Source of the DNA: Eledone cirrhosa
Lineage: Eukaryota
Direction: 5' to 3'
Length of the DNA: 64,000 nt
NCBI GenBank assembly: GCA_964016885.1
Contig: OZ024753.1
Span: 6,448,001-6,512,000 of the forward strand
The position numbers were made by a program, and so were the translations under genes. Shown one piece after another: positions 26,161 through 26,465 of the stretch. Within the stretch, counting starts at the first letter, position 1. Every line of letters starts with the position of its first letter. The notes under the pieces were generated by a model. It was not told the origin of the DNA and did not search any database. It saw only the letters and a program-made list of their open reading frames with translations.

Positions 26161-26165
<5 letters not shown>

Positions 26166-26461
26166 ATTAAATAAATGGAAACTATATTTATAAAACCATA
26201 TTTATTTCATTATATATATTTCAGGGATATCATATTAACAATATGTTATGCCTTCATCAGACAAAATACAATATAAACAGTCTTATAAATAAATAGATAC
26301 GACATACCTTTCCATCGACTTTAATATGAAATAAATATGGTTTTATAAATATAGTTTCCATTTATTTAATATCATAAATATACTCCAAATACTTGTTGAG
26401 TGCTTTTATATCGGTTATAAATATTTACTCGTTGTTAACCCAACAATTTAAATATAACTTT

Positions 26462-26465
<4 letters not shown>
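26161..26465. mobile_element. Penelope-like pLTR pair in inverted orientation, between TA runs
   Basis: Perfect 50-bp inverted repeat 26161-26210 / 26326-26375 plus the hammerhead. Confidence 0.65.
26203..26268 (-). ncRNA. Minimal type-I hammerhead ribozyme with an intact core
   Basis: Minus: TATTTTGT-CTGATGA-AGG..CATAACATATTGTTAATATG..CCT-GAAA-T(ATAT)A-TA^ATGAAATA; 8-bp stem I (2 GU pairs), palindromic stem III. Confidence 0.75.

What the first reader, a model, noticed from the sequence alone, without database searches (positions are those of the whole stretch)
26161..26465. Hammerhead ribozyme whose inverted duplicate starts exactly at the predicted cleavage site
Seen: minus strand 26268-26203 folds as a minimal type-I hammerhead (stem I TATTTTGT/ATGAAATA, CTGATGA, stem II AGG/CCT with an inner TAACA/TGTTA hairpin, GAAA, palindromic TATATA, AUA triplet). 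The predicted 3' product begins ATGAAATAAATATGG. A perfect 50-bp inverted copy on the plus strand starts at that same nucleotide (26326), and identity stops one base upstream. Known: Penelope-like elements carry minimal hammerheads with palindromic stem III that cleave as dimers, and they often leave inverted pLTRs. Inference: the junction records the ribozyme-cut RNA 5' end being copied into DNA, a genomic footprint of in vivo cleavage.
Basis: partly seen in the sequence, partly recalled or inferred. Interest (0 to 1): 0.75.

Follow-up and report, generated by a model that had tools for sequence, protein, structure and literature searches.

The report
Jumping-gene stub joined at ribozyme cut
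This 306-base stretch is one of tens of thousands of short back-to-back insertions of a Penelope-like jumping gene; one arm starts exactly at the predicted cut site of its hammerhead ribozyme, and across the genome arms start there about two to two-and-a-half times more often than our chance models give, which likely records occasional self-cutting, although almost all copies run through the site uncut.

Summary
Observation confirmed: a type I hammerhead (26268-26203, minus) and an inverted copy starting at the predicted cut (26326; 51 identical bases, none upstream). The locus is a head-to-head stub, in (TA)n, of a very abundant Penelope-like element (27,093 exact hits of one 29-mer) whose 3.8-kb parent has Hydra-clade protein motifs. 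This layout is known. Genome-wide test: 26 inverted arms start at the cut, against 0-12 (scaled) at each of 18 neighbouring positions. Microhomology with stem I explains part; about 2-2.5-fold excess remains (p 0.001-0.014 against two directly comparable positions). Under 1% of arms start there; the main pile-up is at an initiator-like site about 136 bases upstream, a likely transcription start. So occasional cleavage is likely recorded at family level (about 0.55), but this one junction has only about a 30% chance of being such a record. No RNA data. The scan noted similar signals before, in other genomes and elsewhere in this one.

The parts
26112..26161 (.). (TA)n target run, left flank
   Evidence: hides any target-site duplication
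26160..26321 (-). Arm without tail: element positions -111 to +51 relative to the predicted cut; runs through the whole ribozyme
   Evidence: 2 mismatches in 162 bases to the parent copy L031
26203..26268 (-). Type I hammerhead motif: stem I 26268-26261/26210-26203, CUGAUGA 26260-26254, stem II 26253-26223, GAAA 26222-26219, palindromic stem III and H17 26218-26211
26210..26211 (-). Predicted self-cleavage site (after AUA); not tested
   Evidence: hammerhead numbering as in PMC4209133 and File S2 of PMC8557442
26182..26288 (-). Approximate span of the predicted long extension of stem I (about -78 to +29)
   Evidence: MFE folds; fits the invariance of +1..+32 (+1..+29 fixed by the search pattern)
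26322..26325 (.). 4-base linker at the head-to-head joint, no microhomology
   Evidence: does not match the parent upstream of -111
26326..26465 (+). Arm with tail: element positions +1 to +140, starts at the predicted cut
   Evidence: 1 mismatch in 140 bases to L031
26465..26494 (.). (TA)n target run, right flank

Best explanation
This is a short head-to-head insertion of a very abundant Penelope-like retroelement with Hydra-clade features, likely made when the element's enzyme cut a (TA)n run and primed reverse transcription from both DNA ends at two internal sites of its RNA, and the start of the right arm at the predicted ribozyme cut is likely chance or, less often, run-off on a self-cut RNA. 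Shown: the two arms, their fixed outer ends (+48..52 or +138..145), the parent ORF, a pile-up of inner ends about 136 bases upstream of the cut, and a smaller excess at the cut. Inferred: two-site internal priming (by analogy with the anole PLE in vitro), joining of the two cDNA ends by microhomology or a few added bases, a transcription start at the upstream pile-up, and ribozyme cleavage of a small share of template RNAs. Because the left arm copies through the intact ribozyme, cleavage here would need two RNA molecules, one cut and one uncut.
For: Family size and layout: 27,093 exact hits; 19 of 30 unselected copies end at +48..52 and 11 of 30 at +138..145, all into TA-rich runs; head-to-head pairs with one tailed and one untailed arm and scattered inner ends. 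Parent: 3,778-base tandem unit L031 with RT motifs (YRDD), DKT, RWR, CxCX5C, GIY-YIG-like IIY..YVG, CxxC and CxH, matching the Hydra description. Uncut template dominates: 304 of 27,093 copies lack the A before the cut and 26 of the first 30 of these are local substitutions or deletions. Upstream pile-up: 45 of 86 arms that hold the initiator-like motif begin within a few bases of it (by eye); 28 of 101 partner ends lie at -125..-142, 4 beyond. Excess at the cut: 26 strict inverted arms at +1 (of 50 rows) against 9 at -2 (27 rows) and 10 at +6 (32 rows), binomial p 0.001, or 0.014 without four stem-I fold-backs and one double count; direct joins 16 against about 6 expected under the microhomology null, insert-bearing joins 10 against 4-6. 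One insertion has both arms starting at +1 around a single extra base (L147/L148) and three more come close (L135, L141, L273).
Against: No RNA evidence of cleavage. The microhomology null already puts 9-12% of joints at +1 (18% seen) and would put 23% there if joints used about 4 bases of microhomology rather than the 1.9 seen in controls. Controls other than -2 and +6 rest on assumed filter factors; classes were partly assigned by eye; 28 of 128 rows were never listed. The test whether +1 arms have partners confined downstream of the cut was not significant (9 of 25 against 13 of 72, p 0.09). The monomer's active fold is 4.3 kcal/mol above the minimum. Two-site priming and the joining step are not shown for this family.
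Confidence: 0.8

Rival explanations
1. One reading: this very junction is the 5' end of a ribozyme-cut RNA copied into DNA.
For: Exact start at +1 with a non-matching 4-base linker; family-wide excess at +1; RNA 5' ends appear to be recorded at such joints (upstream pile-up); R2 elements give a precedent (PMC3774820, abstract).
Against: For joints whose partner runs through the ribozyme, 16 seen against 8-10 expected, so 39-49% are in excess, and the excess is not proven to come from cleavage. The linker can be read as -2/-1 plus a slip, which would mean an uncut template.
Confidence: 0.3
2. No cleavage footprint at all: the excess at +1 comes from sequence and structure (stem I complementarity, AT microhomology, fold-back in the TATATA palindrome, or an RT pause at the end of the long stem I).
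For: The null makes +1 the top position by itself; 4 of 26 arms are stem-I fold-backs, three with 8-base microhomology, and 5 more use 2 bases; positions -6..-1 are also raised (about 10 each) over +2..+13 (about 5); for the anole PLE no reads began or ended at the cut and ribozyme mutants inserted normally in vitro (PMC11167929).
Against: The excess stays after removing fold-backs (p 0.008-0.014); it is one base wide; it also shows in insert-bearing joints, where partner microhomology does not set the boundary (10 against 4-6, p 0.008-0.08).
Confidence: 0.4
3. The element replicates through unit-length RNA cut at both ribozymes and ligated to a circle, as proposed for PLEs; copies then read through the ligated site.
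For: The tandem unit can be read cut-to-cut as 3,778 bases; read-through of the site is what a ligated circle would give; model proposed in PMC4209133.
Against: Most arms stop at or before the initiator-like site about 136 bases upstream of the cut, which fits a linear RNA starting there, not a circle.
Confidence: 0.12
4. Assembly artefact or DNA-level inversion.
For: No listed contig piece spans the joint in four public runs (a hole proves nothing).
Against: The arms have different, family-typical outer ends and the same layout recurs in many loci.
Confidence: 0.03

Closest known systems
Hydra-clade EN+ Penelope-like elements (Craig et al. 2021, PMC8557442; section 11, passages and part 2 of the supplement read)
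   Same: C-terminal GIY-YIG-type endonuclease, DKT, CxCX5C linker, CxxC and CxH around E and N, no CCHH, (TA)n targets, canonical hammerhead near the 3' end with a palindromic stem III; inverted 5'-truncated copy and one-sided tail.
   Different: Unit 3.8 kb (paper: generally under 3 kb) with a 1.4-kb 3' region; RWR in place of RWK; tail about 89 bases (paper: 30-40 for PLEs); longer stem II and a long predicted stem I extension.
Poseidon PLE of Anolis carolinensis in vitro (Frangieh et al. 2024, PMC11167929; parts 1-2 of 4 read)
   Same: Two internal RT start sites that define the tail; both target strands cut and extended; AT-rich targets; uncut RNA is the dominant substrate.
   Different: That paper found no RNA reads beginning or ending at the cut; here genomic arms show a modest excess at it. 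There the cut lies inside the ORF, here 187 bases before the ATG.
[quoted passage not shown]
   Same: CUGANGA / GAAA core, palindromic stem III predicted to work as a dimer; pairs on opposite strands 100-700 bases apart already noted.
   Different: The parts read give no in vivo evidence and no junction mapping.
Inverted pLTR insertions of Adineta vaga Penelope (Arkhipova et al. 2013, PMC3846280; passages read)
   Same: Head-to-head pLTRs, tail on one arm, microhomology and palindromes at joints.
   Different: Explained there by self-priming on an antisense template; ribozyme not considered in the passages read.
R2 retrotransposon HDV-like ribozyme (Eickbush et al. 2013, PMC3774820; abstract only)
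   Same: Self-cleavage site reflected in genomic 5' junctions.
   Different: In R2 the cut makes the 5' end of the working template; here it marks under 1% of arms.

Membership tests
Type I hammerhead ribozyme (PLE type) | CUGANGA and GAAA cores, NUH triplet, stem I closing both ends | tested here: met
Type I hammerhead ribozyme (PLE type) | Stems supported by variation between copies | tested here: met
   stem I 100% paired, stem II 5 two-sided changes; stem III variant keeps pairing as G-U
Type I hammerhead ribozyme (PLE type) | Self-cleavage (monomer, dimer or protein-assisted) | not testable with these tools
   needs a bench assay
Type I hammerhead ribozyme (PLE type) | Match to an Rfam hammerhead model | tested here: inconclusive
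   none among the 150 of 156 matches shown; whether Rfam models cover such variants was not checked
EN+ Penelope-like element | Single ORF with RT and C-terminal GIY-YIG endonuclease | tested here: met
   motifs by eye in L031-L036; Atlas neighbours carry HTH_animal and, in 16-20% of members, RVT_1; Pfam gave 0 hits for 3 of 3 pieces and PDB sequences none
EN+ Penelope-like element | pLTRs from partial tandems, inverted 5'-truncated copy, one-sided tail | tested here: met
Hydra clade | DKT, CxCX5C linker, CxxC and CxH, no CCHH | tested here: met
   read
Hydra clade | RWK motif | tested here: inconclusive
   RWR found
Hydra clade | (TA)n insertion and canonical hammerhead | tested here: met
Hydra clade | Length generally under 3 kb (a tendency, not a rule) | tested here: not met
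   unit 3,778 bases
Hydra clade | Placement in the RT phylogeny | not tested
Non-LTR retrozyme | Tandem non-coding units each with a hammerhead | tested here: not met
   one ribozyme at the locus, arms are ends of a coding element; definition from 10.64898/2026.07.22.740005 part 1

The most novel reading that the evidence does not exclude
The joints of this family's inverted stubs map the RNA's 5' ends to the base: a main start at an initiator-like site and a second end at the hammerhead cut, so a PLE hammerhead cuts its RNA in the germline and the cut product, which has lost the ribozyme, is still reverse-transcribed and inserted, sometimes together with an uncut RNA in one event as at this locus.
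Probability: 0.5. Interest if true: 0.6.

Novelty: new member of a known kind. Interest (0 to 1): 0.4.

Why it matters
Whether PLE hammerheads cut in living cells is open in the papers read (PMC8557442: function unclear; PMC11167929: no reads at the cut, mutants insert normally; PMC4209133: no in vivo evidence). A family with tens of thousands of junctions lets the question be tested by counting. The count here says cleavage, if real, is a side route. The locus itself is ordinary.

Tried and rejected
(304 copies without A before the cut) first looked like a large pile-up; 26 of the first 30 were local substitutions or deletions, one was a joint to a SINE-like repeat with 3-base microhomology, two rows were one tandem jump, one was an inverted joint. 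Junctions to non-element DNA were dropped from the tally because Helitron-like, SINE-like and other repeats insert into the ribozyme's TA run. Rows dropped by eye before fetching, as local deletions or duplications: 7 of 50, 24 of the 100 listed, 9 of 63 (one being the mirror of a fetched row). Idea that the 5' cut product primes on (TA)n: 36 copies end at the cut and run into TA (29 of 30 checked) against 14 at a control site with a shorter TA match; not separable from microhomology, so not used. Sequencing runs: no RNA holder listed; the four runs laid are contigs of one study and cannot show RNA ends. Pfam and PDB sequence searches did not recognise the parent ORF. Literature searches for a reported match between PLE copy ends and the hammerhead cut found none; the library lacks most subscription papers, and bioRxiv supplements were closed.

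Full report
1. Observation. The motif and the inverted copy are as described. Positions below count from the predicted cut (+1 = 26210 on minus, 26326 on plus). The minus arm covers -111..+51 (26321-26160), the plus arm +1..+140 (26326-26465), with a 4-base linker between and (TA)n runs on both sides. Identity of the arms is 51 bases forward and 0 upstream. In 30 unselected copies N7 takes all four bases while the other core bases are nearly fixed; 26 of 30 keep both cores next to the cut. Stem III is a palindrome that pairs as an 8-base duplex, as in published Hydra hammerheads (File S2 of PMC8557442).

2. What it belongs to. A 29-mer starting at +1 has 27,093 exact hits in the 3.0-Gb genome; further subfamilies differ at +3 and +4, so this is a lower bound. 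The best copies are 98-99% identical to the window. [quoted passage not shown] Its motifs match the Hydra clade as described in section 11 of PMC8557442, except RWR for RWK and greater length. Pfam did not recognise it; Atlas neighbours are eukaryotic clusters with HTH_animal and some RVT_1. The three copies spanning the whole ORF each carry a stop or frameshift; two 5'-truncated copies are open. No part of the ORF lies in the window.

3. Layout. Outer ends are fixed: 19 of 30 unselected copies end at +48..52 and 11 at +138..145. Pairs are head-to-head, one arm of each kind, with scattered inner ends. This is the known PLE pattern (PMC8557442, PMC3846280), and the two outer ends match the two internal RT starts shown for the anole element (PMC11167929).

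4. Test of the cleavage claim. Only 304 of 27,093 copies lack the A before the cut, and most of those sampled are local changes. To count true ends I used patterns that exclude an intact GAAA and fix or scan the boundary, fetched the candidates and kept only joints to an inverted arm. Raw counts: +1: 26 arms in 25 insertions; -1: 7; -2: 9; -3: 6; -4: 5; -5: 5; -6: 7 plus one mirror row; +6: 10; and, from the first 100 of 128 rows, +2: 6, +3: 5, +4: 1, +5: 0, +7: 6, +8: 0, +9: 2, +10: 0, +11: 2, +12: 3, +13: 1. Scaled for filters (factors assumed from base composition) the neighbours run 0-12. Only -2 and +6 are directly comparable: binomial p 0.001 for 26, 0.014 for 21 (which used 10 for -2). 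A simulation on 20 natural templates shows that microhomology alone makes +1 the top position, because stem I pairs +1..+8 with upstream sequence: 9-12% of joints at the control mean of 1.9 bases, 23% at 4.3 bases; observed 18%. Against this null, direct joins are 16 for about 6 expected and insert-bearing joins 10 for 4-6; together 26 for 10-12 (Poisson p 2e-5 to 3e-4, too low because baseline error is ignored). With a filter pass of about 0.1, some 250 arms genome-wide start at +1, under 1% of the family. Joints like the window's, with a partner that runs through the ribozyme, number 16 for 8-10 expected.

5. Upstream pile-up. Prompted by an earlier scan note (e1-9952324), I checked inner ends further up. 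They cluster about 136 bases before the cut: 28 of 101 partner ends at -125..-142 and 4 beyond; 45 of 86 arms that hold an initiator-like motif (label recalled) begin within a few bases of it, 17 at its A, 5 of these after a G that the template lacks (by eye; suggestive of a cap, too few to test). These arms come partly from selected loci. This is best read as a transcription start, and it suggests that RNA 5' ends are recorded at these joints, which makes a cleavage origin of the +1 excess more plausible without proving it.

6. Mechanism. Inferred: a short promoter in the pLTR gives RNA from about -136; the element's protein cuts both strands of (TA)n and primes at +51 and +140; each cDNA runs towards the 5' end and stops early or runs off; the two ends join by microhomology or a few added bases. 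A small share of templates is likely cut by the ribozyme, giving run-off at +1. At this locus that would need one cut and one uncut RNA. I put family-level cleavage footprints at about 0.55 and this junction at about 0.3.

7. Literature and novelty. The layout, the ribozyme and the clade are known. In the searches made no paper reports PLE copy ends at the hammerhead cut; R2 is the precedent in another class (PMC3774820, abstract). Earlier scan notes report the same kind of signal in other genomes, with mixed outcomes, and in another piece of this genome; they are unchecked and not counted as support. Verdict: ordinary locus, new member of a known kind, with a modest and testable family-level signal. 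Interest 0.4.

Noticed in passing
L347:1462-1932 (G000:C23, from 484003): Eight head-to-tail 60-base units of the ribozyme (-58..-1 plus TA), each ending at the predicted cut and lacking the 3' strand of stem I, inside one insertion; N7 is mixed G/T among units. Could be template jumps to a cut 3' end or TA slippage and unequal exchange; only this locus matched.
   Followed up: partly
L065/L066 (G000:C1:377086017-377086331); L297, L313: A 285-base tandem unit that starts at +1 and ends inside the ORF start; a similar same-direction jump joins at +11 in other loci, so it is not specific to the cut.
   Followed up: partly
L354-L383: 36 copies stop at the predicted cut and run into (TA)n; confounded with the TA match of stem III.
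   Followed up: yes
L101, L118, L123, L198, L226, L290: Helitron-like and SINE-like repeats (labels recalled, not tested) inserted in the ribozyme's TA run.
   Followed up: no
L072, L083, L064: Copies in which GAAA and part of stem III are deleted (2 of 30 unselected copies); if a subfamily, a natural dead-ribozyme control.
   Followed up: no
window 26950-28040: Decayed LTR-retrotransposon-like region: weak integrase hit (rve, E 6e-5, below cut-off); RT-like stretch upstream seen by eye only.
   Followed up: partly
window 24104-25620: AT-rich minisatellite with a 22-base period and palindromic units; source of the spurious microRNA matches.
   Followed up: no
L032:441-1937, L035:4182-5234 (minus), L031:1-717 (minus): Other PLE-like ORFs next to family copies (weak GIY-YIG and RVT_1 hits for L032).
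   Followed up: no
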